From contig JBBRCQ010000010.1 in the NCBI GenBank assembly GCA_038204725.1, positions 9,072 to 73,071 of the forward strand: a DNA stretch of 64,000 nt, written 5' to 3'. Made by a program: the position numbers and the translations under genes. Of the stretch, positions 10,411-23,970 are shown piece after piece (positions within the stretch are counted from its first letter, which is position 1; each line of letters opens with the position of its first letter). The notes beneath the pieces were generated by a model. It made no database searches, was not told the DNA's origin, and saw only the letters and a list, made by a program, of their open reading frames with translations. This stretch comes from Bacteroidales bacterium (GTDB taxonomy: Bacteria; Bacteroidota; Bacteroidia; Bacteroidales; JACABE01).

Positions 10411-10423
10411 AAAAACAAATGCT

Positions 10424-11041
10424 ATGAATGATCAACTGAAACACACTGAAGTACACAGAGATGACGAAGCATCCAAATTAGGCATGTGGCTCTTCATTTT
10501 TACAGAACTCCTTTTATTCGGAGGTTTATTCCTGGTTTATTCAATTTATAGAGCACAATATCATGAAAATTTTCATGAAGGGAGTTTAGAATTAAGTGTC
10601 ACAATAGGTGCAATCAACACAATTGTGCTTTTATTCAGTAGTATGACCATTGCAATGGCTTTAACTGCTATGCAAAAAAACAATAAAAAATTGGCTCTGA
10701 TAATGATTGCGGTTACATTGCTGATGGCTTTCATCTTTTTAGTGAATAAATATTTTGAATGGGGTGCAAAGTTTCATCATGGATTATACCCCGGATCTGA
10801 TTTAATGTCTCACTTAGAAAGAGGTCATCTTTTATATTTCAGCCTGTATTTTTTTATGACCGGATTGCACGCATTACATATTATTGTTGGGATGACACTT
10901 CTATTAATTGTATTTTTTAAAGTGAAAAATGGAAACATTCATTATCAAAAATATGTATTTCTGGAAAATGGAGCGCTTTACTGGCATCTTGTAGATTTAA
11001 TCTGGATTTTCTTATTCCCGTTAATGTATTTAATTTCATGA
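10424..11041 (+). CDS. ctaE: Cytochrome c oxidase subunit III (short form)
   Basis: 205 aa, polytopic, with a WHLVDLIWIFLFP motif. Confidence 0.85.
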   Translation: MNDQLKHTEVHRDDEASKLGMWLFIFTELLLFGGLFLVYSIYRAQYHENFHEGSLELSVTIGAINTIVLLFSSMTIAMALTAMQKNNKKLALIMIAVTLLMAFIFLVNKYFEWGAKFHHGLYPGSDLMSHLERGHLLYFSLYFFMTGLHALHIIVGMTLLLIVFFKVKNGNIHYQKYVFLENGALYWHLVDLIWIFLFPLMYLIS

Positions 11042-11056
11042 TAAAATTATATTAAA

Positions 11057-11341
11057 ATGGCTAATCACAGTTCACATACAACAGCATATAAAGTATTGGG
11101 AAGGGTTTTAATTACTTTAATGACGCTTACTTTCCTAACCATTTATATTACCTCTATTCATCTGGCTGCATTAACTGTTATGGTAGCATTATTAATTGCA
11201 GGCATTAAAGGATTTTTGGTTATGTATTATTTTATGCATTTAAAATATGAAACTTTATTGTTGCGTATTCTTGTGAGCATGACCATTGTTCTATTCATCG
11301 TTATTGTTTTAGTAACATTTATTGATTATTCATACAGATAA
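11057..11341 (+). CDS. Cytochrome c oxidase subunit IV-like small membrane protein
   Basis: 94 aa, 3 TM. Position follows subunit III, as in ctaF/CoxIV genes. Confidence 0.65.
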   Translation: MANHSSHTTAYKVLGRVLITLMTLTFLTIYITSIHLAALTVMVALLIAGIKGFLVMYYFMHLKYETLLLRILVSMTIVLFIVIVLVTFIDYSYR

Positions 11342-11351
11342 ATAAAAAAAT

Positions 11352-12272
11352 ATGTTTTCTAACGCTTCGAATTTTGTTCAGAATGTAGATTATGCATTTC
11401 TGATAATTTTAGGAATCTCATTTTTCTTTTTAATTTTATTAACTGCAATAATGGTTGTTTTTGTAGTAAAATATAATAAGAAAAAACACAGCAAAGCTGT
11501 TCAGATAAAAGACAATCCACTTTTAGAAATTACATGGACTATAGTACCATTGATTCTTGCACTTTATATGTTTTATATCGGCTGGGAAGGATTTCTTCCG
11601 ATGCGAAAAGCACCTAAAGATGCGATGGAAGTGAATGTAATCGGAAGAATGTGGAAATGGACGTTTGAGTACCCAGGCAATAAACTATCTGATACACTAA
11701 TATTACCAATACATAAATCGGTCAAACTCAACCTTATTTCAAAAGATGTTATCCATGGTTTCTTTATTCCTTCTTTTAGAATTAAAGAAGACGTTGTACC
11801 CGGGAAAAAAAATTATACATGGTTTATTCCCGGCGAATTGGGTGATTACAATCTGTTTTGTTCTTCCTATTGTGGGGTTAGCCATTCCTATATGTCAGCT
11901 ATTGTCAGGATTGTTCCCGATGTAAATTACTCAAAGTGGATAGCTGCTTTACCCGCTAAGCCATCAGAAAATCATGAAGGATATAAAATTATGGAAAATA
12001 ACGGATGTTTTTCATGTCATACAGTGGATGGAACTAAAAATGTAGGTCCTAGTTTCAGGGGATTATTCGGATCAACTATCGAAGTAATTACAAATGGGAA
12101 CCCAAGAAAAATCACAGTAGATGCAGAATACATTAAGTCTTCAGTTTATGAACCGGATAAAGATGTTGTGGTTGATTATCAAAAAGGACTCATGAAATCC
12201 TATCAAGGACTTATTAAAGAGAAAGAAATAAACGGAATAACAGAATATTTAAAAACATTAAACAAAAAATAA
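11352..12272 (+). CDS. ctaC: Cytochrome c oxidase subunit II with fused C-terminal cytochrome c (caa3 type)
   Basis: Two N-terminal TM helices. CuA site VIHGF...CSSYCGVSHSYM. C-terminal CFSCH haem c domain. Confidence 0.9.
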   Translation: MFSNASNFVQNVDYAFLIILGISFFFLILLTAIMVVFVVKYNKKKHSKAVQIKDNPLLEITWTIVPLILALYMFYIGWEGFLPMRKAPKDAMEVNVIGRMWKWTFEYPGNKLSDTLILPIHKSVKLNLISKDVIHGFFIPSFRIKEDVVPGKKNYTWFIPGELGDYNLFCSSYCGVSHSYMSAIVRIVPDVNYSKWIAALPAKPSENHEGYKIMENNGCFSCHTVDGTKNVGPSFRGLFGSTIEVITNGNPRKITVDAEYIKSSVYEPDKDVVVDYQKGLMKSYQGLIKEKEINGITEYLKTLNKK

Positions 12273-12306
12273 ACTGAAAAAGCTGCTGATAAATATTATA
12301 CCTGCC

Positions 12307-13143
12307 TTGATAAAATACAAGGTTTCATTGGCTGTAACATTTACAGCTATTACAGGTTATATCCTTTACAATGGAAATATTGATTTTCAGTTACTTTATT
12401 TAGCATTGGGCGTATTTATACTTGCAGGTGGAGTGAGTGCATTCAATGAATTTCAGGAACGTGAATATGATGCAAAAATGAACAGGACAATGCATCGCCC
12501 AATTCCTTCGGGGGAAATCTCGCCTCAACTTGCACTTTTTATTTCTTTACTTTTTATAGTAATTGGAATTGTAATATTGTTTGTTTTTTTCGGAACAATC
12601 ACAACATTATTAGGATTATTCAATGTAATATGGTATAATTTAATCTATACAAATCTCAAAAAAATCACACCGTTTGCAGTGGTTCCCGGTTCATTAACCG
12701 GAGCTGTACCCGTTTTAATAGGCTGGACTGCTGCAGGAGGGTATATCTTTGATTCAGCTATCATTTATATTGCATTGTTTGTTTTTGTGTGGCAAATACC
12801 GCATTTCTGGTTATTAATGCTTAAATACGGCGAGGAATATGAAGCAGCCGGTTTCCCCACTATCAATCAATCATTTAACCCCGAAAATCTGAAAATAATC
12901 ATATTTTCCTGGGTTATAGCAACTACTATTATTTCGATGATGCTGCCTTTGTTTATTGTGAATATATCATTGCCGTTTTTTGTAGCCGTTTTTGTTTTAA
13001 ATATACTGTTTGTTGGAATTTTTACATTGCTGACATTTGGGAAAGTCACTGAACTGAATCTTAAACGTTCTTTTATCGGTATCAATATCTACATGTTCAT
13101 TTTCATGGTGATGCTCACCATTTATCATCTTTTTGAATTATAA
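12307..13143 (+). CDS. ctaB: Protohaem IX farnesyltransferase (haem O synthase)
   Basis: 278 aa UbiA-type polytopic protein (NEFQEREYDAKMNRT..RP). There is no in-frame ATG/GTG upstream, so a TTG start at 12307 is assumed. Confidence 0.85.
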   Translation: MIKYKVSLAVTFTAITGYILYNGNIDFQLLYLALGVFILAGGVSAFNEFQEREYDAKMNRTMHRPIPSGEISPQLALFISLLFIVIGIVILFVFFGTITTLLGLFNVIWYNLIYTNLKKITPFAVVPGSLTGAVPVLIGWTAAGGYIFDSAIIYIALFVFVWQIPHFWLLMLKYGEEYEAAGFPTINQSFNPENLKIIIFSWVIATTIISMMLPLFIVNISLPFFVAVFVLNILFVGIFTLLTFGKVTELNLKRSFIGINIYMFIFMVMLTIYHLFEL

Positions 13144-14496: not shown

Positions 14497-17280
14497 TTAG
14501 TATTTTCCAGCAAGTAATGAATAGATTATCAGTATCACAAGTATAATCCCAGTAAACAAGGCTATAAATCCAAATATTTTTACAAATTTAAGCCATGATT
14601 TAGTGATTTCTGTTTTAACAATATATTTCTCCATATCACCTGCTTCTTCCATTTTTTCAAATTCTTTGGGACGGTCAATTTTATATTCTTCCAATTCAAC
14701 ATGACCGGTAAAAATAACAGTATCCATTGGAAATGCTTCAGGACGCAAATGAGTATTGAAGAAATGAATAGTGAATATAAAAACTACAGCTAATAGTGCT
14801 TCATCACTATGTATAATTTGAGCTACATTAATAATCCAGCCGGGAAATATTTTGGTAAATATTTCAGGAAACCATAAAATTAAACCGGAGAATCCAATCA
14901 CAGCAACACCCCAAAAAACAGCCATATAATCAAACTTTTCCCAATAAGTCCATCTACCATATTTAGGACGTTCGCCCAACCATAAAAACCATTTAATAGT
15001 CGCAATGAAATCTATAACATCTTGTTTGTTAAACATTAATGTATTCGATCCAAAAATGAAAGATCCGATTTTTTTATTTTGGGCTTTTTTGAGTTTTAAT
15101 AAAGATACGATATGGAAAATAAAGTATCCAAAAGTAATTAATGCTGCAAAACGATGGATATTGCCTGCAATTTCAACACCACCCATTAATCTTGCAAAGT
15201 TATTTGCCCAGCTCATGTGGGCAAACTTAAGCATCATACCCGTAAAGGCTAACAATAAGAAGCTGAGTATTACAAAAATGTGAGTGATCCGCTGGCTTTT
15301 TGTAAATCGTCGGATGTATATTGCTTCTCCTTGTGGTAATGGATGACGTTTCTTTTTTCTGGCTTCAACAATGGAACGGGGAATCCATAAAAGTGTATGT
15401 ATTCCGAAAAATCCAAAAACACCAAAAAGCAATGAAGTCATACCCCAAAATGTATAATAAAGTATATTATTATCATTGTGGGTAGCATGAGATAAAAATC
15501 CTGTAAATTTCAGATTTGCATTGGCATGACATTTTTTACAGGTTTTTACAATGTATTTTTCTCCTACACTGGATTCGGGATTATTAATGTTCAGAATATT
15601 ATGTGCACCATGACAATCAGAACATCTAGCCGTTTTTAACTGACCCAGTGTATATGCTTTCCCATGATAGGTTTCCATATAGGAAGATGAAAGTTTTTCG
15701 TGACACGAGCCACATTGAATTGTAATCTGAGTTAAAAATTGATCTTTGTCGATTTCTGTAATCGTATGTGCTGTATGACAATTAGCACAAGTTGGATATT
15801 TTTTATCTTTTGTATTTTTTAAAATTGAATGATCACTGCTGATATATTCATTATAAATACTTTTATGACATTTTCCACAGGTTTTTGGGATTTGAAGCGG
15901 GTTTACCGTTGAATTAGGATCAGATTCCTTTAAAACATTATGTGAGGTGTGACAATCGGTACAAATCGCACTAGCTAGCAATCCTTTATTCATTAAACCT
16001 TTCCCATGAACACTCTTGGAATAATCACTAAAAGCATCTATTTCTTTTAAATTTGTATTGATAACAGCTTTTCCGTTTTTATTATGACACTTTCCACAAA
16101 GTTTCGGACTGTTTGCTCTGTTTGTTTCTGAATTCTCATCATATCTGCTTAATATAATATGTGTTCCATGACAATCGGTACAATAGGGTGCATTCGATTT
16201 TTTACCATAAAATGCCTGTCCATGTCCACTATTTATGTAAATATTCGAAACTGCTTCATGACATATAGAACAATCTACTTTACCTACTGTTTTACAGGGT
16301 CGAACATGGCTATTATCTTTAGTTACGTCAGCATGGCATTTATCACAGGCAATATTTTTATGAGGTGTATTCATAAAATCTTCATGATTGATTTTTAAGG
16401 ATACTTTTTTATTATTTACAATTTTAAAAGTATTATCAGACTCATGACATTTTGTACATACCTGATTGGATATGGAAATTTCTTCTTTTTGACGTTTTAT
16501 TTTATGTGATGAATGGCAATCGTTGCAACTGGGTATACTTCCCGCTTTCTTTTCCCATAATTCACTCTTTATAACCTTTTTATGAACCATTTCAATGTTA
16601 GTATGACATTTCATGCAGGTAGATGCAATTTTTTTACTAGAAGTAGTAGCCTGAGGATTGATATGGGGAAGTATCAAATGGTTCCCATGACAATCATTAC
16701 AAGTTGCTGAAACTATCAGTCCACTTTCTAACAATCCTTTTCCATGTATACTCTCACTGTAATTGGTGAGAATATTTTGCGTAGTTATGTTATATAATCG
16801 AGCAACCGGAGCGCCTTCTTTATGACATTTACCACACAAAACAGGAATGTTCATTTTATAAGTAACTGATTTTACATTGGTATGTGAAAGGACATCATGT
16901 TTTCCATGACATTCCTTACAATCAGGAGCATAAGGAGCATTAAATTTTAATGCCTGCCCATGAATACTAATACCAAATTGATATTCAGCATTTTTATGAC
17001 AACTGCCACAACTTACTTCCTTGAGATTTTCGGGATGAGGAAAATCTGTTACATTCGCATCTTTATGGCAAGATATACATTTTACATTTTTATGTATAGA
17101 ATTCCCAATTATACTTTTATTGACAAACAATGAAACGGTTTTGCCATTGGATACTTTTGTCAGGGTTTTATCACTATGGCAACCATAACAGTCATCATTC
17201 GTCTGTGAATATAAATTACCTGTAAAAAAAAGAAAACTCGTAATTACTAGTAATAGGATTGCCTTGATAACATTTAACAT
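14497..17280 (-). CDS. Multihaem cytochrome c (19 CxxCH) fused to a dihaem cytochrome b-like membrane domain (CbcL-like architecture)
   Basis: 927 aa. Signal peptide, then 19 CxxCH motifs (7 are CxxCHxxH) in residues about 30-590. About six TM helices follow, with the FdnI/HydC-type His pattern (RFTKSQRITH, GNIHRF...FIFH, IIHSD...TIHFFNTH). Confidence 0.85.
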   Translation of the reverse strand: MLNVIKAILLLVITSFLFFTGNLYSQTNDDCYGCHSDKTLTKVSNGKTVSLFVNKSIIGNSIHKNVKCISCHKDANVTDFPHPENLKEVSCGSCHKNAEYQFGISIHGQALKFNAPYAPDCKECHGKHDVLSHTNVKSVTYKMNIPVLCGKCHKEGAPVARLYNITTQNILTNYSESIHGKGLLESGLIVSATCNDCHGNHLILPHINPQATTSSKKIASTCMKCHTNIEMVHKKVIKSELWEKKAGSIPSCNDCHSSHKIKRQKEEISISNQVCTKCHESDNTFKIVNNKKVSLKINHEDFMNTPHKNIACDKCHADVTKDNSHVRPCKTVGKVDCSICHEAVSNIYINSGHGQAFYGKKSNAPYCTDCHGTHIILSRYDENSETNRANSPKLCGKCHNKNGKAVINTNLKEIDAFSDYSKSVHGKGLMNKGLLASAICTDCHTSHNVLKESDPNSTVNPLQIPKTCGKCHKSIYNEYISSDHSILKNTKDKKYPTCANCHTAHTITEIDKDQFLTQITIQCGSCHEKLSSSYMETYHGKAYTLGQLKTARCSDCHGAHNILNINNPESSVGEKYIVKTCKKCHANANLKFTGFLSHATHNDNNILYYTFWGMTSLLFGVFGFFGIHTLLWIPRSIVEARKKKRHPLPQGEAIYIRRFTKSQRITHIFVILSFLLLAFTGMMLKFAHMSWANNFARLMGGVEIAGNIHRFAALITFGYFIFHIVSLLKLKKAQNKKIGSFIFGSNTLMFNKQDVIDFIATIKWFLWLGERPKYGRWTYWEKFDYMAVFWGVAVIGFSGLILWFPEIFTKIFPGWIINVAQIIHSDEALLAVVFIFTIHFFNTHLRPEAFPMDTVIFTGHVELEEYKIDRPKEFEKMEEAGDMEKYIVKTEITKSWLKFVKIFGFIALFTGIILVILIIYSLLAGKY

Positions 17281-17425: not shown

Positions 17426-17818
17426 TTAAAGTGTCCTCAAATAATTCACTAAATTCCATTTTTCATTATCATCTTTAATTTTAGTCTTGTATGCAGGCAT
17501 TTTACCATGTCCTGTATTTATTTTATAGAAAATAGCACCATCTGTTTGTGTTTTGAATGTTTTCAATGTAAAATCAGAAGGTTCTGCCATTTTACCAACT
17601 CCTTTACCAGTGGCGCCATGACACAATTTACAGGTCTTTGTAAACAAAACTTTACCTGCAGCAATAGATGTAGCATCAGAATTTACAGGATTTTTAACAG
17701 AGGCAGCAGCAGCAGGTACATCCCAGCCTTTGTCAACGCTAACAAAAGAAAACAGACATAAAACAATGGTAGCCATTGAAAAAGTGATAACTACTTTTTT
17801 AAATTTTACTTTTTTCAT
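17426..17818 (-). CDS. Periplasmic monohaem class-I cytochrome c
   Basis: One CKLCHG and a Met ligand context HGKMPAY. Start moved to Met 17818 (MKKVKFKK plus hydrophobic signal). Same subfamily pattern (W-D-V-P...NP...G...CxxCHG..GKG) as the N-terminus of the 6684 cytochrome. Confidence 0.85.
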   Translation of the reverse strand: MKKVKFKKVVITFSMATIVLCLFSFVSVDKGWDVPAAAASVKNPVNSDATSIAAGKVLFTKTCKLCHGATGKGVGKMAEPSDFTLKTFKTQTDGAIFYKINTGHGKMPAYKTKIKDDNEKWNLVNYLRTL

Positions 17819-17871
17819 GTTATTTCTCCTTAGTTTTAAATGATTAATAATATATAATGTACTAAACAAAA

Positions 17872-18804
17872 TTAGTAAAATACTCTTGTAATATTAAATC
17901 CAAGCATCAATCCACTATGCAAAAAATCATTCTGGTTATAAACCATATTTCGTTGATATGTAATATCATAAGCAGTAGTTACAAATATTTGGAACGAATG
18001 AGCAGAAGTTGCATTTTCAATCCCAATAGCTATATTTGGTTTTGCTTCTTTATACGTATCATTGTCATTCAATTTTTTATACAATTTTGTAAAATTATGA
18101 TCGTATTCACCAAAAAGAGCAATAGTAGGCGTTAAATTAACTTTTGCAATAACAGAAAGTCCAAAGTTGTCATTTCTTCTAAGTCTTACATTGGTCGTAT
18201 CATTTTTGGCATAGGATTCTGCAATATTATAATGTGTATAGGTTGGAGCGATCTGCAAATTTAAAAAATCAGTAATCTTGCGTGAAAACATAATTTCGTG
18301 AAAATATGACAACCTGTGAACATATTTGTAGTTTGCATAGTCAAAATTAGACGATTCTCTCGCATCTAAAACTAAAGAACCATAATAAGTAATTGAAACC
18401 GGTATTTTTCCATTTGTAGTTTGTTCTACAATACCATATTTAATACTCAAGTCCTGTTGTTTGTTAAATTTAGTAGCTCCAATACCAATCTGCAATTTAT
18501 CTGTAATACTATAGTTGAGCCCCAATCTAATATTTGAAGGAGAATAAATACCCCAAAATTCGTCAAAACCATCACTTATTTTACCAAATCTGTGATTAAT
18601 TACAAACTCTAACGTTTTGGCCGGATACATTAATACCGTTTGATTTTCAAGAAATATACCGCTGTTGTATGTGCCGGTAACTGGTTTGTTAGGTTCAGGT
18701 GTTTCCTGAGCAAACAAAAAACTTGTTGCAAAAATTGCAATAAACACAAAGGATGTAAAATATTTAATCAGTATGTGATGTGTTGTTTTTTTTATTGTTA
18801 TCAT
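17872..18804 (-). CDS. Small outer-membrane beta-barrel protein (HRFG-motif family; DUF5777-like from memory)
   Basis: 310 aa. Signal peptide ...SFLFAQE, alternating hydrophobic strands throughout, and a C-terminal ...GFNITRVFY aromatic terminus typical of BAM substrates. Confidence 0.65.
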   Translation of the reverse strand: MITIKKTTHHILIKYFTSFVFIAIFATSFLFAQETPEPNKPVTGTYNSGIFLENQTVLMYPAKTLEFVINHRFGKISDGFDEFWGIYSPSNIRLGLNYSITDKLQIGIGATKFNKQQDLSIKYGIVEQTTNGKIPVSITYYGSLVLDARESSNFDYANYKYVHRLSYFHEIMFSRKITDFLNLQIAPTYTHYNIAESYAKNDTTNVRLRRNDNFGLSVIAKVNLTPTIALFGEYDHNFTKLYKKLNDNDTYKEAKPNIAIGIENATSAHSFQIFVTTAYDITYQRNMVYNQNDFLHSGLMLGFNITRVFY

Positions 18805-18874: not shown

Positions 18875-19246
18875 TTAATTATCCAATGCTCCCGTATCAA
18901 TCCATCCTTTTAAATTGGTTAATTCAGTGGAAGTTAATGATTTACCCTGGTGACTTGCTCCGTTAAATTTCAGAAACAAAATACTTGTAGCAGAACTGTT
19001 AGGAACAACTGCATCTACTAATAAATTAGCTCTAACTGCAGACGGTGTACCGGTTAATGTTAAACCACCAGCAGTACCATGACAGCCTGTGCAATTATAT
19101 TTGGTAAAAATAGGATAAACATCCGTTGAAAATTTTGCATTCGGATTTGGAACGATCACTGTAACTTTAGGTTCAATAGTATCTTTAGTGCAACTTCCAA
19201 GTATCACAAAGATAAAAGCAATTAAAAACAGTACTCTGATTTTCAT
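18875..19246 (-). CDS. Monohaem c-type lipoprotein (PSCyt1-like domain pattern)
   Basis: Start re-set to Met 19246 (MKIRVLFLIAFIFVILGSC, lipobox LGSC). Single CTGCHG in VYPIFTKYNCTGCHGTAGGLTL...LTSTELTNLKGWIDTGA, which resembles the planctomycete-type cytochrome C domain pattern as I remember it. Confidence 0.7.
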   Translation of the reverse strand: MKIRVLFLIAFIFVILGSCTKDTIEPKVTVIVPNPNAKFSTDVYPIFTKYNCTGCHGTAGGLTLTGTPSAVRANLLVDAVVPNSSATSILFLKFNGASHQGKSLTSTELTNLKGWIDTGALDN

Positions 19247-19433
19247 TTTTTTTTTTTTTAGTTTAACATAATTCAATAAAGTATTTCTAACTTTTATATG
19301 CAAAAATATTAAAAAAAACGACACTTGGTATAACATCAACTAAATATAGCCAAATATAAAAATCTATAATTACTTTAACTACCTATCAATCTGAAACATA
19401 TTACAAATCATTAAAACAACAATCATAGATAAA

Positions 19434-19447
19434 TTGACATATATCAA
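19434..19447. promoter_or_regulatory. FNR/CRP-type palindromic box TTGACATATATCAA
   Basis: TTGAC-N4-ATCAA, one mismatch from the TTGAT-N4-ATCAA consensus. Lies 188 bp upstream of the lipoprotein-cytochrome operon start in the divergent intergenic region. Confidence 0.55.
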
Positions 19448-19822: not shown

Positions 19823-20518
19823 ATGGAAGATAAAAAAAATCCTAAACACTGTGGAGCCTGTCTGACAAAGCTTCCTATCTTTAAATCGCTGACTGAAGAA
19901 CAATTTGAATTGGTTAATCAGGTACGTTGCAGAGTTAAATTCCGCCCTGGTGAAATTATATTTAAACAAGGTACAGCCATGACACATATTATCGTTGTCA
20001 ACGAAGGTCTTGTAAAAATTTATCTTGAAGGCATCAACAACCGTAATTTGATACTTCGTTTTGCCAGACCTGTTTCAATAATAGGTGGCCCCGGATTTTT
20101 TACAGATTTTAAAAATCATATAACAACTGTAGCTGTCGAAGAATCCTCAGCTTGTTTTATAGATGTAAATACGATCACTGATTTATTAAAAGTGAATACA
20201 GATTTTGCAATAGATTTATTAAAATGGGTGAATTCTCAAACTTTATCTAATTATTTAAAGTTCATTGAATTAACCCAGAAAGGTATGCATGGAAGAATTG
20301 CCGGGGCTCTGCTTTATTTGCATTCTGAAGTTTTTATCGATAGAAATGGTGAAATCCGGATTAAACGTCAGGATTTAGCTGACCTCACTGCAATGTCAAA
20401 AGAAAGTGCTATCCGTATATTAAAAGAACTCAAAGATGAAAATATCATTTCAGTCGATGGAAATGCAATTATTTTAAATGATATTGCCAGTTTAACACAA
20501 ATTAGTATTAAAGGATAA
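19823..20518 (+). CDS. Crp/Fnr-family transcription regulator with FNR-like cysteines
   Basis: 231 aa with a cNMP-binding-like beta-roll and a C-terminal HTH (RQDLADLTAMSKESAIRILKEL). N-terminal HCGAC and an internal EESSACFIDV. Confidence 0.85.
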   Translation: MEDKKNPKHCGACLTKLPIFKSLTEEQFELVNQVRCRVKFRPGEIIFKQGTAMTHIIVVNEGLVKIYLEGINNRNLILRFARPVSIIGGPGFFTDFKNHITTVAVEESSACFIDVNTITDLLKVNTDFAIDLLKWVNSQTLSNYLKFIELTQKGMHGRIAGALLYLHSEVFIDRNGEIRIKRQDLADLTAMSKESAIRILKELKDENIISVDGNAIILNDIASLTQISIKG

Positions 20519-20632: not shown

Positions 20633-20646
20633 TTGACATTTATCAA
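20633..20646. promoter_or_regulatory. FNR/CRP-type palindromic box TTGACATTTATCAA
   Basis: Same half-sites as the box at 19434. Its centre is about 32 bp upstream of a TACTTTTA -7-like box (20671-20678) and 160 bp upstream of the hexahaem gene. Confidence 0.55.
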
Positions 20647-20801: not shown

Positions 20802-22136
20802 ATGAAAAAATTTAACTTTAAATTTTTATTTACAGGAGTCATTATGCTTTCAACAGCATCAATGTTTTTTCTGTCAGGTTGCGCAAAAGATGGCAACGAC
20901 GGTACAGATGGTAAAGATGGTAAAGACGGAGTGGATGCAATTGCAACTTGCAAAATCTGTCATAATGCATCAGTAGTTGATAGTATTGCAACTCAATTTC
21001 AACTTTCAAAACATGAATATGGTTTAGCAGCTGAAGAAGAAGCTGGTAATACTTCTTGTGGTCCATGCCACGAACAAGAAGGATTCAGATATGTTATTAA
21101 AGCCAATACTTCAACACAGTTTCTGATTGTACCACCTGCAACTACCTATTCAAATCCTTATGCAACAACAGCTTCTACTTCATTCGGTTCTTTGGGTTGT
21201 AAAACTTGTCATAGTAGTTTACATACTACATATGGTTATTCTGATATTTCAGCTTTAACCACAACTGCAGCCGTTCCATTAACAATGTGGGGTGGTGCTA
21301 AAACTGTTAACCTTACACAGGATGGCGGAAAAAGTAATTTATGTGTTAGATGTCATCAACCACGTCCATTCACTAATTCTAATACCGACAAAAATGTATT
21401 AAATTATGCTAAATTAGTTAGCAATCCAACTGATACATTTTATAGCTTTACACAAGCAAATACATTAAATGTACTGAAACCTGCTTACAGAACTCATACT
21501 CATTACGGTACTGCAGGTGCAGTTTTCGCAGGTACAGCTGGTGTTGAATTCACAGGTGCTTTAACTTATACCAGTTCAAAACATACTACAGATGTAAGTT
21601 GTCAGGATTGTCACATGGCTCCTATGCAAGGTGCTGCAGGTGGACATACTTTCAAATCAAAAGGCAATTTTAATGGTTGTACTCCATGTCACCCATCAGT
21701 AAATGCAACTTCTCAGGATGCTGCTTACTGGTCAACTCCAAGAGCTGATATCAAAACTTTACTAAACCAACTGGCTGCTAAATTAACTATTGGTGGTGTA
21801 GATATATTAAATAGAAACGGAGATAGTGAATCAAATCTTTGGATAGGTTTAACTACCAATAACTATGATGGTTATTTAAATGTCTATGATCCTATTACCA
21901 ATCCATCAGGCGCAACATACAATACAAGCAGTTTCCGTTTTACAGGAACTCCTCCTTCATCTTGGACTTCAGCCCAAATTGCGTATAACAATTCTTTACC
22001 AAGAATCACCCTAACCAATGCACAAATGGGAGCTATCATCAATTTCCAGATGTGTTTGAGAGATTACAGTTTAGGAATTCACAATTTCAAATATACTAAA
22101 GCATTATTGACAAACTCAATTGCTATGTTACCATAA
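20802..22136 (+). CDS. Hexahaem c-type cytochrome lipoprotein with a collagen-like GXY stretch
   Basis: 444 aa, lipobox FLSGC. Immediately after the Cys comes AKD-GND-GTD-GKD-GKD-GVD. Six CxxCH motifs: CKICH, CGPCH, CKTCH, CVRCH, CQDCH and CTPCH. Confidence 0.8.
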   Translation: MKKFNFKFLFTGVIMLSTASMFFLSGCAKDGNDGTDGKDGKDGVDAIATCKICHNASVVDSIATQFQLSKHEYGLAAEEEAGNTSCGPCHEQEGFRYVIKANTSTQFLIVPPATTYSNPYATTASTSFGSLGCKTCHSSLHTTYGYSDISALTTTAAVPLTMWGGAKTVNLTQDGGKSNLCVRCHQPRPFTNSNTDKNVLNYAKLVSNPTDTFYSFTQANTLNVLKPAYRTHTHYGTAGAVFAGTAGVEFTGALTYTSSKHTTDVSCQDCHMAPMQGAAGGHTFKSKGNFNGCTPCHPSVNATSQDAAYWSTPRADIKTLLNQLAAKLTIGGVDILNRNGDSESNLWIGLTTNNYDGYLNVYDPITNPSGATYNTSSFRFTGTPPSSWTSAQIAYNNSLPRITLTNAQMGAIINFQMCLRDYSLGIHNFKYTKALLTNSIAMLP

Positions 22137-22168
22137 TATATTTTTGAAATAAAATGTAAAATTAAAAA

Positions 22169-22195
22169 AGCTGCCTCCAATGAGGCAGCTTTTTT
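22169..22195 (+). terminator. Rho-independent terminator after the hexahaem gene
   Basis: AGCTGCCTC-CAAT-GAGGCAGCT followed by TTTTT. Confidence 0.8.
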
Positions 22196-22282
22196 AATTT
22201 TTATACATTGGAATTTTGAAAAAGAAAGTGAGAAAACTAAACACAATTATTTTATCCTGAATTTCGGTTAATCATTTTTATC

Positions 22283-22341: not shown

Positions 22342-23970
22342 TTAATCCTGCATATAAGGATATTTAAAATCTAAGGCCGGATTCAGGGTTTCTTTAATCG
22401 TTCGTGGGCTCACCCAACGTACCAGATTCAGATGACTACCTGCTTTATCATTGGTACCCGATGCTCTGGAACCACCAAAGGGCTGTTGTCCCACCAACGC
22501 ACCCGAAGGCTTATCGTTGAAATAAAAATTACCGGCAGCATAGCGCAACACTTTACAAGCTTTAATCAAAGCATATTTATCACTACTGAATATAGCTCCT
22601 GTTAAAGCATAAGGCGAAGTCTGGTCACAGATTTTTAAGGTTTCGTCAAATTTATCGTCTTCATAAACATAAATAGTCATTACCGGTCCGAAAATCTCTT
22701 CTTCCATAGTCAAAAAATGAGGATTGCTGGTTACAATTATTGTAGGTTCCACAAAATAACCTTTAGAACAATCTCCATTCCCACCCGCAATAATTTCAGC
22801 ATCTTCAGACATTTTAACTTTTTCGATATACGACATAATATTATCGTAAGAATGCTGGTCAATCACTGCATTTACAAAATTATTATAATCGGCTACATCT
22901 CCCATTTTCATACGTGATATCATTTCAAGTATATTCTTTTTAACATCCTTCCATAATGATACTGGAATATAAGTCCTGGATGCTGCCGAACATTTTTGAC
23001 CCTGGTACTCGAAAGCTCCTGAAATGATCGCATTGCTCAATTCCTGTGTTTTTGCGGAACTGTGTGCAAAAATAAAATCTTTGCCTCCCGTTTCTCCAAC
23101 TAATTTCGGATATGATTTGTAAGTAGTTAAATTATCACTCACCTGTTTCCATAATTGCTGGAAAGTATTGCTGGATCCGGTAAAATGAATACCTGCCAGA
23201 TCTTTGTGTTTCATCACAACAGTACTGATAAGACTTCCGGAACCCGGTACAAAGTTAATGACTCCAGCCGGCAAACCAGCTTCTTCAAAAATCTTCATTA
23301 AATAATAATTTGATAATAAAGCAGTAGATGAAGGTTTCCATACTGTCGTATTTCCCATTAATGCAACGGAAGTATTCAGATTGGCAGCAATGGCAGTAAA
23401 GTTAAAAGGTGTAATAGTGTATACAAAACCTTCCAGTGGCCGGTATTCAATACGATTGATCGTTTGCATCCCCGATGTAGGCTGCACTCCATAAATAAGT
23501 GAGGCAAAATACACATTAAATCTCAGATAATCAATCACCTCACAGGCAGCATCGATTTCAGCCTGAAATACATTTTTTCCCTGCCCCAACATAGTGGCTG
23601 CATTTAATACATAACGGTATTTTTTCGAAATCAATTCGGCTGCTTTTAACATAATGGAGGCTCTTTCGTCCCAGGCCAGGTTCATCCATTCTTCTTTGGC
23701 CTGCAATGCAGCATCAATCGCCAGGGTTACTTCTTTTTCTGTTGCCTGATGATAGGTTGCCAATACATGCTGATGATTATGTGGCATTACGACTTTGCCC
23801 ATTTTCCCTGTCTTTATTTCTTTTCCACCTATAATTAATGGAATTTCAATGGTTTGATGGGTTTGCTTTTCCAGTTCTTCAGTCAACATTTTATGTTCAA
23901 TACTTCCTGGCAGATAAGTGTAAATGGGCTCATTCACAGGCTCTCTGAAATTATACCTTGCGTTGTTCAT
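22342..23970 (-). CDS. pruA: L-glutamate gamma-semialdehyde (1-pyrroline-5-carboxylate) dehydrogenase
   Basis: 542 aa aldehyde dehydrogenase fold (ETGGKDF, GQKCSA catalytic Cys). The N-terminus MNNARYNFREPVNEP is typical of long P5CDH. Confidence 0.85.
   Translation of the reverse strand: MNNARYNFREPVNEPIYTYLPGSIEHKMLTEELEKQTHQTIEIPLIIGGKEIKTGKMGKVVMPHNHQHVLATYHQATEKEVTLAIDAALQAKEEWMNLAWDERASIMLKAAELISKKYRYVLNAATMLGQGKNVFQAEIDAACEVIDYLRFNVYFASLIYGVQPTSGMQTINRIEYRPLEGFVYTITPFNFTAIAANLNTSVALMGNTTVWKPSSTALLSNYYLMKIFEEAGLPAGVINFVPGSGSLISTVVMKHKDLAGIHFTGSSNTFQQLWKQVSDNLTTYKSYPKLVGETGGKDFIFAHSSAKTQELSNAIISGAFEYQGQKCSAASRTYIPVSLWKDVKKNILEMISRMKMGDVADYNNFVNAVIDQHSYDNIMSYIEKVKMSEDAEIIAGGNGDCSKGYFVEPTIIVTSNPHFLTMEEEIFGPVMTIYVYEDDKFDETLKICDQTSPYALTGAIFSSDKYALIKACKVLRYAAGNFYFNDKPSGALVGQQPFGGSRASGTNDKAGSHLNLVRWVSPRTIKETLNPALDFKYPYMQD

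What the first reader, a model, noticed from the sequence alone, without database searches (positions are those of the whole stretch)
20802..22136. Hexahaem lipoprotein with a collagen-like GXY stalk directly after the lipidated cysteine
Seen: the signal ends with the lipobox FLSGC. The mature N-terminus is C-AKD-GND-GTD-GKD-GKD-GVD, which is five consecutive G-X-Y triplets, all with an acidic Y position. Six CxxCH motifs are then spread sparsely over about 390 residues. Established: Bacteroidota surface lipoproteins carry a short acidic export signal just after the Cys, and G-X-Y repeats form trimeric collagen-like stalks in several bacterial surface proteins. Inference: the protein may be flipped to the cell surface and oligomerised or spaced away from the membrane. 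That would be a plausible terminal contact for insoluble or external redox partners. Six haems in about 45 kDa is the same haem density as the filament-forming Geobacter OmcS class, but I cannot assert homology from reading.
Basis: partly seen in the sequence, partly recalled or inferred. Interest (0 to 1): 0.6.

Follow-up and report, generated by a model that had tools for sequence, protein, structure and literature searches.

The report
Collagen-stalked six-haem lipoprotein cytochrome
This gene encodes a lipid-anchored six-haem protein, related to nitrite reductase NrfA and the iron-reducing surface cytochrome OcwA, that sits on a short collagen-like stalk; it is probably the electron-output end of an oxygen-regulated respiratory chain in uncultured wetland and lake Bacteroidales, and I found this design in no paper.

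Summary
Window 20802-22136 (+) encodes a 444-aa protein with lipobox LSGC (Cys27), five unbroken G-X-D triplets (residues 31-45) and six CxxCH motifs. The haems lie within residues 50-297, not across 390 residues.

The triplet run is a family hallmark. Among 237 homologues, nearly all have one unbroken GXY run of 3-16 triplets between the lipid Cys and haem 1. Relatives without a lipobox carry 23 to about 80 triplets and pass Pfam's Collagen threshold.

A diverse profile and a confident AlphaFold2 model (pLDDT 89.5) place the protein in the NrfA/ONR/OcwA superfamily, closest to OcwA and OmhA. They do not place it with OmcS or MtrC. It is not NrfA proper: it has no CxxCK, Q-P-R replaces V-E-Y, and a true nrfA lies elsewhere in the genome.

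The gene is monocistronic, with a conserved FNR-type box about 170 nt upstream and a hairpin terminator. It clusters with a Crp/FNR regulator, a DUF5777 barrel, small cytochromes and a 19-haem CbcL-type quinol dehydrogenase.

The most likely role is a tethered terminal oxidoreductase of an anaerobic electron chain. Surface exposure, trimerisation and substrate remain untested, and no family member has the canonical Bacteroidota surface-export signal (0 of 235).

The parts
20633..20646 (+). FNR/CRP-type palindrome TTGACATTTATCAA, 169 nt upstream of the start codon
   Evidence: One search finds two such boxes in the window; the other, at 19434-19447, faces the divergent cytochrome operon. A box with <=1 mismatch lies within 350 nt upstream of the orthologue in 51 of 74 species genomes, at a median position of -171.
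20802..22136 (+). Coding sequence of the 444-aa hexahaem lipoprotein (stop codon included)
   Evidence: There is one copy in the genome. More than 1000 homologues were found.
20802..20882 (+). Lipoprotein signal peptide ending in lipobox L-S-G-C (Cys27 is the lipidated residue)
   Evidence: Read directly from the sequence. A lipobox Cys is conserved across the family.
20892..20936 (+). Collagen-like run GND-GTD-GKD-GKD-GVD (residues 31-45)
   Evidence: homologues carry 3-16 unbroken triplets, with Pro at 29% of X positions and Asp at 38% of Y positions. Longer relatives pass the Pfam Collagen threshold. In the AlphaFold2 monomer this stretch has low confidence (pLDDT ~60).
20949..20963 (+). 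Haem 1 motif CKICH (residues 50-54), an extra haem preceding the NrfA-like core, four residues after the last triplet
   Evidence: Invariant in 144 sequences. Its position relative to the stalk is fixed.
21057..21071 (+). Haem 2 motif CGPCH (residues 86-90), at the position of the NrfA/ONR catalytic haem (CxxCK) and of OcwA haem 5, but with His as proximal ligand
   Evidence: Profile alignments to OcwA and to TvNiR. The haem spacing is collinear with NrfA.
21198..21212 (+). Haem 3 motif CKTCH (residues 133-137), equivalent to NrfA haem 2
   Evidence: alignment to Geobacter lovleyi NrfA (6v0a); Pfam PF02335 match.
21342..21356 (+). Haem 4 motif CVRCH (residues 181-185), equivalent to NrfA haem 3. 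It is followed by invariant Q-P-R in place of NrfA's V-E-Y.
21600..21614 (+). Haem 5 motif CQDCH (residues 267-271), equivalent to NrfA haem 4 (CxDCHM)
21678..21692 (+). Haem 6 motif CTPCH (residues 293-297), equivalent to NrfA haem 5. Most orthologues have CX4CH at this site.
21720..22133 (+). Haem-free C-terminal module (residues 307-444): NrfA-type helices carrying the S-x-G-x-H427-N motif, plus a highly conserved ~60-residue beta insertion (about residues 330-390)
   Evidence: AlphaFold2 gives pLDDT >95 here. The motif aligns to the 'S-x-G-x-HN' helix of OcwA, OmhA and NrfA. Invariant columns are listed.
22158..22201 (.). Palindromic GC-rich hairpin flanked by T/A runs, 22 nt after the stop: a likely bidirectional terminator that closes a single-gene transcription unit
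   Evidence: The next gene (22342-23970) converges on the minus strand.
19823..20518 (+). Crp/FNR-family regulator (231 aa; Cys10, Cys13, Cys36, Cys111), the probable regulator of the target
   Evidence: Pfam cNMP_binding + HTH_Crp_2. A homologue lies within 6 kb in 31 of 43 full-flank loci and directly upstream in 39 of 69.
18875..19339 (-). Small one-haem lipoprotein, part of the linked cluster
17872..18804 (-). DUF5777 outer-membrane beta-barrel protein, part of the linked cluster
   Evidence: Pfam PF19089, 230 bits. Within 6 kb of the hexahaem gene in 27 of 43 full-flank loci, and in the same operon in Aquipluma and in L026/L027.
17426..17869 (-). Monohaem class-I cytochrome c (147 aa), part of the linked cluster
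   Evidence: present in 33 of 43 loci.
14497..17280 (-). 927-aa multihaem cytochrome c fused to a cytochrome b (CbcL/MtoC/MtrH type), the probable quinol-side electron donor
   Evidence: Pfam multihaem families + Ni_hydr_CYTB. Synteny. Family context from Zhong & Shi 2018 (PMC6295460).

Best explanation
The gene encodes a lipid-anchored hexahaem c-type cytochrome of the NrfA/ONR/OcwA multihaem superfamily. It consists of an NrfA-like five-haem core, one extra N-terminal haem and the NrfA-type C-terminal helices. A short collagen-like Gly-X-Y spacer tethers it to a membrane, most likely the outer membrane. It is transcribed alone from a promoter with an FNR-type box controlled by the adjacent Crp/FNR regulator, so it is probably made when oxygen is scarce. 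I infer that it is the terminal electron-output (reductase) module of a chain. That chain starts at the neighbouring 19-haem CbcL-type quinol dehydrogenase and passes through small cytochromes and the DUF5777 barrel with its one-haem lipoprotein. Haem 2 sits at the NrfA/OcwA catalytic position with a conserved Arg/His/Tyr-rich pocket (R188, R230, H232/H234, Y235). It is probably the reactive site, as in OcwA, which reduces both iron oxides and nitrite. The GXY run sets the distance between membrane and haem head and probably forms a triple helix that bundles three heads. Shown here: the anatomy, superfamily membership, family-wide stalk conservation, synteny and the conserved regulatory box. 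Inferred: oxygen control, direction of electron flow, an open haem, trimerisation, and which membrane face the protein occupies (about even odds between periplasmic face and cell surface).
For: Anatomy is established. Superfamily: a profile of 144 diverse homologues hits OcwA 6i5b (E=3.9e-17), OmhA 6qvm (5.8e-16), many NrfA structures (down to 8e-14) and the octahaem nitrite reductases (~1e-8), with the haem motifs and the C-terminal S-x-G-x-HN helix aligned. The AlphaFold2 model (pLDDT 89.5, pTM 0.87) gives Foldseek PDB hits 1-12 all within this superfamily, with OcwA first (probability 1.00). PF02335 scores above its cut-off for P0001 (27.5 vs 24.1 bits), and 27 of 36 close homologues match it at E<=0.001. 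Six non-motif histidines are conserved (H71, H141, H234, H261, H282, H427). H232/H234 align with the non-bonding distal His pair of OmhA/OcwA (Soares et al. 2022, PMC9250108). Stalk. Regulation: the box at 20633-20646 is conserved upstream in 51 of 74 species, median position -171; a terminator follows the gene. Cluster: Crp in 31, DUF5777 in 27 and cytochrome c in 33 of 43 full-flank loci, with co-directional operons in Aquipluma nitroreducens and in distant sister-family loci. A genuine nrfA (608 bits) lies on another contig, so this is not the cell's nitrite ammonifier. Habitat: 211 species genomes, almost all MAGs labelled Bacteroidales, Bacteroidia, Prolixibacteraceae or Lentimicrobiaceae; isolate names suggest lake water columns, fens, peat, groundwater and soil.
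Against: No experiment exists for any member. The substrate is unknown. The six conserved extra histidines could equally make all six haems bis-His, giving a pure electron-transfer protein with no open site. The alignment of H232/H234 to the OcwA/OmhA distal pair shifts by 1-2 residues between alignments, and one alignment (OmhA) slips by one haem in the N-terminal half. Foldseek TM-scores are modest (0.36-0.39). The stalk here has only five triplets and no proline. One orthologue (P0004) has no triplets and two homologues (P0008 and the fragment P0131) have only two, so the stalk is not essential for folding. The cluster is not universal: DUF5777 is absent within 6 kb in 16 of 43 loci. The FNR-like regulator has an atypical cysteine set, so oxygen sensing is an inference.
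Confidence: 0.6

Rival explanations
1. One reading: the lipoprotein is flipped to the cell surface, trimerised on a collagen stalk, and acts as the terminal contact for insoluble or external acceptors (Fe(III)/Mn(IV) minerals, humics, partner cells). The DUF5777 barrel and its one-haem lipoprotein would carry electrons across the outer membrane.
For: The closest solved relatives are the cell-surface iron reductases OcwA and OmhA (PMC6703420, PMC9250108). The gene is linked to an outer-membrane barrel, lipoprotein cytochromes and a CbcL-type quinol dehydrogenase, a layout like porin-cytochrome conduits (PMC6295460). From my own knowledge, characterised bacterial collagen-like proteins are surface structures. 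Close relatives (49% identity) carry 23 to ~80 triplets, up to ~69 nm if triple-helical, which is longer than a periplasm is wide. These relatives lie directly downstream of small proteins with a type IX secretion sorting domain. The host MAGs' isolate names suggest habitats such as Lac Pavin, fens and peat, which I know to be iron- and humic-rich.
Against: 0 of 235 family members carry the canonical Bacteroidota surface-export signal. The +3K +4D of this protein matches the 'KD-only' construct, which reached the surface in only ~30% of cells. A small DUF5777 barrel with a one-haem partner is not an obvious trans-membrane wire.
Confidence: 0.4
2. The protein is a periplasm-facing, outer-membrane-tethered enzyme that reduces or detoxifies a small soluble molecule (nitrite, NO, hydroxylamine, sulfite or a similar oxyanion). 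It would use the NrfA-position haem 2 as active site and receive electrons from the CbcL-type protein and cytochrome c. The stalk would simply lower the head into the periplasm.
For: Superfamily membership with a collinear NrfA core. A conserved polar pocket, with R188 at the NrfA catalytic Tyr position, the R230-x-H232-x-H234-Y235 motif and a conserved E249. No canonical surface-export signal. FNR-type control is typical of anaerobic respiratory reductases. All characterised members of this superfamily show nitrite or NO reductase activity in vitro (PMC9250108).
Against: The lysine ligand (CxxCK) and the V-E-Y Ca2+/Tyr site of NrfA are absent. A true nrfA already exists in the genome. No NrfH/NrfBCD-type partner is adjacent. 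Long-collagen relatives are hard to fit into a periplasm. The strict triplet register is not needed for a mere flexible tether.
Confidence: 0.4
3. The GXY run is only a flexible, acidic, low-complexity tether and does not form a collagen triple helix. The protein would be monomeric, or dimeric like NrfA and OcwA.
For: There are only five triplets and no proline in this protein. One orthologue has no triplets and two homologues have two. The AlphaFold2 monomer gives a low-confidence coil here. NrfA and OcwA are dimers (PMC6703420). P0001 itself does not hit Pfam Collagen.
Against: Glycine sits at every third position without a single interruption in nearly all of 237 homologues. Length changes occur only in whole triplets, and the ends are fixed relative to the Cys and haem 1. 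X positions are Pro-rich (29%). Longer relatives pass the Pfam Collagen threshold (30-114 bits). A flexible tether needs no such register.
Confidence: 0.35
4. The protein is an OmcS/OmcE/OmcZ-type filament-forming 'nanowire' cytochrome.
For: Six haems in ~45 kDa, as in OmcS. There is a weak profile match to OmcS 6ef8 (25 bits, E=7.6e-5, two short stretches around CxxCH motifs).
Against: The match is motif-level only. OcwA, OmhA and NrfA score 45-66 bits over most of the protein. No filament cytochrome appears among the Foldseek hits. A lipid anchor plus stalk is a tethered design, not a polymerising one.
Confidence: 0.02

Closest known systems
OcwA of Thermincola potens (nonahaem outer cell-wall cytochrome, PDB 6I5B) and OmhA of Carboxydothermus ferrireducens (undecahaem S-layer cytochrome, PDB 6QVM)
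   Same: These are the best sequence-profile hits (E=3.9e-17 and 5.8e-16) and the best Foldseek hits. They share the NrfA-like C-terminal haem module, the S-x-G-x-HN helix, a His-ligated (CxxCH) haem at the NrfA catalytic position, and a conserved His pair region before the haem that corresponds to NrfA haem 4.
   Different: This protein has six haems, not 9 or 11. Only one haem of the N-terminal (c554-like) module is kept, so the second open haem of OcwA is absent. It has a lipobox and collagen-like stalk instead of a Gram-positive cell-wall or S-layer location. It has an extra conserved beta insertion in the C-terminal module. It comes from diderm Bacteroidota. TM-scores are only 0.31-0.39.
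NrfA, pentahaem ammonia-forming cytochrome c nitrite reductase (Pfam PF02335)
   Same: Haems 2-6 are collinear with NrfA haems 1-5, with similar spacing. The motifs CxxCH-Q/V.., CxDCHM and S-x-G-x-HN are shared. The Pfam score is just above the cut-off.
   Different: There is no CxxCK lysine ligand. Q-P-R replaces the V-E-Y Ca2+/Tyr site. No NrfH or NrfBCD partner is adjacent. The protein has an extra N-terminal haem, a lipid anchor and a stalk. The genome has a separate genuine nrfA.
Octahaem nitrite reductase (TvNiR/ONR) and the HAO clade
   Same: Same superfamily (E~1e-8). These enzymes assemble as trimers or hexamers (TvNiR's PDB title calls it hexameric; the rest is from my own knowledge), which would suit a three-stranded stalk.
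   Different: They have eight haems. ONR has CxxCK, and HAO has a Tyr cross-link. They are soluble periplasmic enzymes without a lipid anchor or collagen segment.
Bacterial collagen-like proteins (Scl1/Scl2 of Streptococcus, BclA of Bacillus, Bucl8 of Burkholderia)
   Same: Unbroken Gly-X-Y repeats rich in charged residues (GKD triplets) hold a globular head away from the cell envelope. Bucl8 is also an outer-membrane lipoprotein with a collagen-like region (PMC7682875, listed).
   Different: The run is much shorter (5 triplets here, 3-16 in the family, against dozens). It lies directly after the lipidated Cys and directly before a haem. The head is a redox protein, not an adhesin or efflux duct.
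Porin-cytochrome conduits (MtrCAB, Geobacter Pcc) fed by CbcL/CymA-type quinol dehydrogenases
   Same: The gene neighbourhood combines a CbcL-type inner-membrane multihaem quinol dehydrogenase, small periplasmic cytochromes, an outer-membrane barrel and lipoprotein cytochromes (PMC6295460).
   Different: No MtrA/MtrB/MtrC or OmaB/OmbB/OmcB homologues are present. The barrel is a small DUF5777 protein. The lipoprotein cytochrome has the NrfA/OcwA fold. The MtrC-type Pfam match is a 50-residue local hit at the cut-off.

Membership tests
NrfA (ammonia-forming cytochrome c nitrite reductase, PF02335) | Score above the Pfam gathering cut-off | tested here: met
   27.5 bits against a cut-off of 24.1, covering residues 116-297 against profile positions 111-282 of 438. 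27 of 36 close homologues match at E<=0.001. The match is marginal and covers only part of the model.
NrfA (ammonia-forming cytochrome c nitrite reductase, PF02335) | Catalytic haem bound by CxxCK with a lysine proximal ligand | tested here: not met
   The haem at that position is C86-G-P-C-H90. No family member has CxxCK at this site.
NrfA (ammonia-forming cytochrome c nitrite reductase, PF02335) | Active-site Tyr and Ca2+-binding Glu directly after haem 3 (CxxCH-V-E-Y) | tested here: not met
   Invariant Q186-P187-R188 follows the equivalent haem 4.
NrfA (ammonia-forming cytochrome c nitrite reductase, PF02335) | Adjacent electron-donor genes (nrfH or nrfBCD) | tested here: not met
   The neighbours are a Crp/FNR gene and a convergent aldehyde dehydrogenase. 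The genuine nrfA (608 bits) lies on contig C17.
NrfA/ONR/HAO/OcwA multihaem cytochrome superfamily | Collinear five-haem C-terminal module plus C-terminal helices carrying the distal-ligand His (S/N-x-G-x-H-N) | tested here: met
   Profile hits to OcwA, OmhA, NrfA and ONR run from E=4e-17 to 1e-8 with motifs aligned. Foldseek hits 1-12 all fall in this superfamily.
OcwA/OmhA clade of cell-surface cytochromes | N-terminal c554-like four-haem module with a second penta-coordinated haem (9 or 11 haems in all) | tested here: not met
   Only one haem motif precedes the NrfA-like core, giving six in total.
OcwA/OmhA clade of cell-surface cytochromes | Open-coordination haem at the NrfA position with a non-bonding distal His pair | tested here: inconclusive
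   H232/H234 align with or within two residues of the OmhA/OcwA His pair (PMC9250108). However, six conserved extra His residues could also make all six haems bis-His. Spectroscopy or a haem-loaded structure is needed.
OmcS-class filament cytochromes | Sequence or fold homology to OmcS/OmcE/OmcZ | tested here: not met
   OmcS 6ef8 scores only 25 bits over two short motif stretches, and no filament cytochrome is among the Foldseek hits.
MtrC/OmcA/UndA outer-membrane decahaem family (PF22113) | Domain II/IV pentahaem fold | tested here: not met
   30.3 bits against a cut-off of 30, but over residues 46-95 only. MtrF 3pmq and UndA score 22-25 bits on short stretches. No Foldseek hit.
Bacterial collagen-like proteins (PF01391) | Unbroken Gly-X-Y repeats | tested here: met
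   Five triplets here and 3-16 in 232 of 237 homologues, with length variation in whole triplets.
Bacterial collagen-like proteins (PF01391) | Score above the Pfam Collagen cut-off | tested here: not met
   P0001 has no Collagen hit. Longer relatives do pass: P0130 30.3, P0192 35.9, P0149 32.8, P0127 51.4 and P0173 113.6 bits against a cut-off of 27.2.
Bacterial collagen-like proteins (PF01391) | Formation of a homotrimeric triple helix | not testable with these tools
   Only monomer prediction was available, and the segment has pLDDT ~60. CD, SEC-MALS or a multimer prediction is needed.
Bacteroidota surface-exposed lipoproteins | Lipobox with lipidated Cys | tested here: met
   L-S-G-C27 follows a typical n- and h-region and is conserved in the family.
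Bacteroidota surface-exposed lipoproteins | Lipoprotein export signal K-(D/E)2, Q-A-(D/E)2 or SDDDD-like just after the Cys | tested here: not met
   Residues +2..+6 are AKDGN. 0 of 235 members have the minimal signal, and 203 have exactly one acidic residue at +2..+6. The KD-only construct was a very weak signal in Lauber et al. 2016.

The most novel reading that the evidence does not exclude
The lipidated Gly-X-Y run is a true collagen triple helix. It would bundle three NrfA/OcwA-type hexahaem heads into an 18-haem, three-headed unit on a rigid stalk of adjustable length (about 1.7 nm for 2 triplets to 14 nm for 16, and up to ~70 nm in lipobox-free relatives) on the outside of the Bacteroidota outer membrane. 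Together with the DUF5777 barrel, its one-haem lipoprotein and the 19-haem CbcL-type protein, this would form a previously unrecognised, FNR-controlled extracellular electron-transfer route in Bacteroidales of anoxic lakes, fens and peat.
Probability: 0.25. Interest if true: 0.85.

Novelty: new variant of a known kind. Interest (0 to 1): 0.62.

Why it matters
Uncultured Bacteroidales are usually treated as fermenters in anoxic freshwater sediments, fens and peat. This family is large: more than 1000 90%-identity clusters and 211 species genomes. A family of FNR-controlled, membrane-tethered OcwA/NrfA-type cytochromes wired to a CbcL-type quinol dehydrogenase suggests that many of these organisms respire an acceptor still to be identified, possibly minerals or humics. 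That would affect iron, carbon and methane budgets.

Structurally, a collagen-like segment placed between a lipid anchor and a haem is a design I found in no paper. Searches for collagen + multihaem + triple helix returned 0 papers, DUF5777 returned 0, and one search found nothing relevant. It would offer a naturally length-tunable spacer for redox proteins.

A six-haem protein that keeps the NrfA core plus one haem of the N-terminal module is also an informative intermediate for the 'grafting and pruning' model of multihaem cytochrome evolution (PMC9250108).

A cultured host with the same operon exists (Aquipluma nitroreducens AQPE_0862, 59% identity), so the questions can be tested directly.

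Tried and rejected
- The single-sequence phmmer search against PDB gave only E>0.5.
- The first AlphaFold2 run used a shallow alignment of 36 sequences at >=58% identity. It gave pLDDT 66.6, and Foldseek found nothing meaningful. A 144-sequence alignment that included the ~350-aa sister family fixed this.
- hhalign of the narrow family alignment against eight near-identical Bacteroidales NrfA sequences gave only a 53-column local match at 12.8% probability, with a different haem register (haems 1-2 onto NrfA haems 1-2). I set this aside because many independent NrfA, ONR and OcwA alignments agree on haems 3-6 = NrfA haems 2-5.
- The OmhA alignment slips by one haem in its N-terminal half. I treated that as alignment noise.
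- Literature searches for DUF5777, collagen + multihaem, and hexahaem + Bacteroidetes EET found nothing specific.
- The Pfam scan of A2 exceeded the size limit.
- The OmcS and MtrC readings were considered and rejected.
- I could not read model coordinates, so haem-ligand assignments rest on sequence alignment only.
Full report
**1. Observation**

The ORF at window 20802-22136 (+) is open and encodes 444 residues. The N-terminus MKKFNFKFLFTGVIMLSTASMFFLSGC is a lipoprotein signal peptide with lipobox L-S-G-C27. The mature chain begins C-AKD-GND-GTD-GKD-GKD-GVD-AIAT-C50KICH. That gives five unbroken Gly-X-Asp triplets (residues 31-45), with the last triplet ending four residues before the first haem cysteine.

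Six CxxCH motifs start at residues 50, 86, 133, 181, 267 and 293. The haems occupy residues 50-297, and the last ~147 residues are a haem-free module.

**2. Is the triplet run more than chance?**

Within the organism's own genome (4.1 Mb, 141 contigs), 378 ORFs have a lipobox-like start. Only this one has >=3 GXY triplets after the cysteine. Only three six-frame ORFs of >=100 aa hold >=5 unbroken triplets anywhere. On its own that would be suggestive at best.

The decisive evidence is comparative. The protein has more than 1000 homologues plus a wider sister family (520 representatives at E<=0.001). I could score 237 members:
- The longest unbroken GXY run between the lipid Cys and the haem-1 Cys is 3-16 triplets in 232 of them, with a mode of 6-7.
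- The run starts at +2 or +4 after the Cys in 220 (C-E-G-P... or C-x-K-E/D-G...).
- The run ends 1 or 4 residues before the haem cysteine in 221.
- Pro is the commonest X residue (29%) and Asp the commonest Y residue (38%).

Length therefore varies only in whole triplets.

One orthologue (P0004) has lost the run cleanly (…LTSC-ET-CKLCH), and two homologues (P0008 and the fragment P0131) have only two triplets. The run is thus dispensable for folding.

Relatives at 36-49% identity lack the lipobox. They have an ordinary signal peptide, a conserved ~115-residue N-terminal domain and collagen-like runs ranging from 8 triplets to about 80. The longest three (P0149, P0127, P0173) hit Pfam Collagen at 33-114 bits (cut-off 27.2). 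Two longer lipoprotein members also pass. The recurring design is anchor, then collagen-like segment, then hexahaem head.

**3. What the haem domain is**

Single-sequence searches were uninformative apart from a marginal Pfam Cytochrom_C552 (NrfA) match of 27.5 bits against a cut-off of 24.1. A profile built from 144 diverse homologues (A2) gave clear hits against PDB sequences:

| Target | E-value |
|---|---|
| OcwA of Thermincola potens (6i5b) | 3.9e-17 |
| Undecahaem S-layer cytochrome of Carboxydothermus ferrireducens (6qvm, OmhA) | 5.8e-16 |
| NrfA from six organisms | 8e-14 to 1e-8 |
| Octahaem nitrite reductases | ~1e-8 |

OmcS (25 bits) and MtrF/UndA (22-25 bits) matched only over short CxxCH stretches.

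With the same alignment AlphaFold2 gave pLDDT 89.5 and pTM 0.87. The first run, on a shallow alignment, had given 66.6. Foldseek against the PDB then returned 13 hits, and the first twelve are all from this superfamily. OcwA ranks first (probability 1.00, TM 0.39), followed by OmhA, NrfA and ONR.

The alignments agree on these equivalences:
- Haems 3-6 (residues 133, 181, 267, 293) correspond to NrfA haems 2-5.
- The C-terminal S423-x-G-x-H427-N motif corresponds to the NrfA/OcwA 'S-x-G-x-HN' helix.
- Haem 2 (C86-G-P-C-H90) corresponds to the catalytic haem of NrfA/TvNiR (CxxCK) and to the open haem 5 of OcwA.
- Haem 1 is an extra haem in front of the NrfA-like core.

**4. Not NrfA proper**

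The lysine ligand is replaced by histidine. The V-E-Y that supplies NrfA's Ca2+ ligand and catalytic Tyr is replaced by invariant Q186-P187-R188. No nrfH or nrfBCD gene is adjacent. The genome has a genuine nrfA (608 bits) on another contig. The NCBI names of some homologues ('ammonia-forming cytochrome c nitrite reductase subunit c552') are therefore over-annotations.

**5. Catalytic or purely electron-transferring?**

Six non-motif histidines are conserved across the superfamily alignment: H71, H141, H234, H261, H282 and H427. By homology, H261, H282 and H427 are NrfA-type distal ligands.

H232/H234, in the conserved R230-x-H-x-H-Y-G motif, align with or within two residues of the 'HH' pair of OmhA/OcwA. 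Soares et al. 2022 describe that pair as the non-bonding distal histidines of the penta-coordinated haem (PMC9250108).

If that equivalence holds, the protein has five bis-His haems and one open haem 2, in a pocket lined by R188, R230, H232/H234 and Y235. If H234 instead ligates haem 2, all six haems are bis-His. Sequence alone cannot decide. OcwA also has enough histidines for full bis-His coordination yet has two open haems (PMC6703420). I lean towards an open, reactive haem 2.

**6. Transcription unit and regulation**

A perfect FNR/CRP-type palindrome, TTGACATTTATCAA, lies at 20633-20646, 169 nt upstream of the start codon. A second copy at 19434-19447 faces the divergent cytochrome operon. 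A GC-rich hairpin flanked by T/A runs follows the stop codon at 22158-22201, and the next gene converges. The gene is therefore monocistronic.

Directly upstream lies a Crp/FNR-family regulator gene. In 74 species-level genomes with enough upstream sequence, a TTGAT-N4-ATCAA box with <=1 mismatch lies within 350 nt of the orthologue in 51. The median position is -171. The box is also present in front of ~30%-identical sister-family genes (L026, L027). Such conservation of position across this divergence indicates a real operator. Oxygen as the signal is an inference from the FNR-like box and the N-terminal Cys pattern.

**7. Gene neighbourhood**

In the window the divergent operon encodes four proteins:
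- a small one-haem lipoprotein (18875-19339);
- a DUF5777 beta-barrel (17872-18804);
- a monohaem cytochrome c (17426-17869);
- a 927-aa multihaem cytochrome fused to a cytochrome b (14497-17280).

The last is of the CbcL/MtoC/MtrH type catalogued by Zhong & Shi 2018, including five Bacteroidetes members (PMC6295460).

In Aquipluma nitroreducens the order is Crp, hexahaem (AQPE_0862), small protein, DUF5777, multihaem c, cytochrome b and a 960-aa multihaem, all co-directional. Across 43 species loci with >=5 kb on both sides, the following lie within 6 kb:

| Neighbour | Loci (of 43) |
|---|---|
| Crp homologue | 31 |
| Cytochrome c | 33 |
| DUF5777 | 27 |
| Small lipoprotein cytochrome | 15 (an undercount for a short, divergent protein) |
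| CbcL-type protein | 11 |

In a same-genus genome the syntenic slot after Crp holds a 32%-identical family member (L025).

**8. Location**

For the cell surface:
- The nearest relatives are surface iron reductases.
- The gene is linked to an outer-membrane barrel.
- From my own knowledge, characterised bacterial collagen-like proteins are surface structures.
- The long-collagen relatives would be up to ~69 nm long if triple-helical. In both loci I could fetch, they lie immediately downstream of small proteins with a type IX secretion sorting domain that share an N-terminal motif.

Against the cell surface:
- The canonical Bacteroidota lipoprotein export signal, K-(D/E)2 or Q-A-(D/E)2, is absent in all 235 members scored.
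- This protein's AKDGN corresponds to the 'KD-only' construct that Lauber et al. found on the surface of only ~30% of cells.

I consider the two faces of the outer membrane about equally likely.

**9. Distribution**

The family is patchy:
- 8 of 301 evenly drawn Bacteroidota genomes have a member; only 2 of those, including the window's own genome, have the close 444-aa type.
- 21 of 61 relatives have one.
- 211 of the 185,579 species genomes encode a confirmed relative.

Among the 80 best loci listed, almost all are uncultured MAGs labelled Bacteroidales, Bacteroidia, Prolixibacteraceae, Lentimicrobiaceae or Mariniphaga. Their isolate names suggest lake water columns (Lac Pavin, Loclat), fens and peat (the fen_ series, SPRUCE), groundwater and soils. 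One record is labelled Omnitrophica.

**10. Mechanism proposed**

Shown here: a lipid-anchored, FNR-box-controlled, single-gene-encoded hexahaem protein of the NrfA/OcwA superfamily with a family-wide collagen-like spacer, genetically linked to a CbcL-type quinol dehydrogenase, small cytochromes and a DUF5777 barrel.

Inferred: under oxygen limitation, electrons from the quinol pool pass through the CbcL-type protein and small cytochromes to this protein. It then reduces a terminal acceptor at or near haem 2. The spacer sets the height of the head and, because of its strict triplet register, probably forms a triple helix that brings three heads and their haem-1 groups together.

The substrate is unknown. 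Candidates are extracellular Fe(III), Mn(IV) or humics (OcwA-like) or a small N- or S-oxyanion (NrfA-like).

**11. Comparison with what is known, and novelty**

The fold belongs to a known superfamily, and the cluster resembles known porin-cytochrome logic. Neither the hexahaem family, nor DUF5777, nor the lipobox-collagen-haem architecture appears in the papers I could search. I therefore rate it a new variant of a known kind.

Earlier notes of this scan describe the same architecture in other genomes and phyla. They are unchecked AI notes and count as leads only. Their points that I re-tested here held up: the superfamily assignment, stalk conservation, FNR box and synteny.

**12. Limits**

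No multimer prediction and no access to model coordinates were available. No biochemical data exist for any member. Haem-ligand assignments rest on sequence alignments that disagree in places.

Noticed in passing
window 21678-21692 (haem 6); alignment A1 columns ~370-380: The sixth haem site is bound by CxxCH (CTPCH) in this protein and its closest clade. Most orthologues use CX4CH (for example CNVTGCH) at the same aligned position. The two motif types therefore interchange at one haem site within one orthologous family.
   Followed up: partly
L028 619-3839; L030 6589-9929: Lipobox-free relatives have a signal peptide, a conserved ~115-aa N-terminal domain and long collagen-like runs (23 triplets in the L030 protein, about 80 in the L028 protein). 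Both lie 12-50 nt downstream of small proteins with a type IX secretion C-terminal sorting domain. Those small proteins share an N-terminal motif (…GG.A.GTGGSV.Y..G…QG.Q.P). This may be a partner pair, and a hint that the head works outside the cell.
   Followed up: partly
L025 (same-genus genome G005) 9965-11260: In a congeneric genome the syntenic slot between the Crp/FNR gene and the aldehyde dehydrogenase gene holds a family member only 32% identical to the target. The flanking genes are 83-86% identical. This points to replacement or rapid divergence of the hexahaem gene at a fixed locus.
   Followed up: no
protein P0004 (orthologue, 76% identity): This orthologue has no GXY triplets at all. 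The lipobox Cys is followed directly by E-T-C-K-L-C-H, a clean deletion of the whole stalk.
   Followed up: no
window about 21790-21970 (residues ~330-390): A ~60-residue beta insertion in the C-terminal helical module (…ILNRNGD..NLW.GLT.NNYDGYLN.YDP..NP…) holds many invariant residues in the 444-aa family and is missing from the ~350-aa sister family. It may be an interface or binding site of unknown role.
   Followed up: no
own genome, contig C17:44176-45462 (outside the window): A genuine membrane-anchored NrfA (CxxCK, 608 bits to PF02335) is encoded elsewhere in the genome. Similar genes occur in about half of the related genomes, independently of the hexahaem gene.
   Followed up: partly
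window 19434-19447: A second FNR-type box, TTGACATATATCAA, lies upstream of the divergent operon (small haem lipoprotein, DUF5777, cytochrome c, 19-haem protein). Both transcription units probably belong to one regulon.
   Followed up: partly
window 19823-20518: The Crp/FNR regulator has Cys10-x2-Cys13, Cys36 and Cys111. This resembles the E. coli FNR cluster ligands shifted by ten residues, but the third N-terminal Cys is displaced. Whether it binds an Fe-S cluster is open.
   Followed up: no
window 8800-13143: Genes for a caa3-type cytochrome oxidase (subunits I, III and II with a cytochrome c domain) and haem O synthase lie directly upstream of tatC and the cytochrome cluster. Aerobic and putatively anaerobic electron-transfer modules therefore sit side by side.
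   Followed up: no
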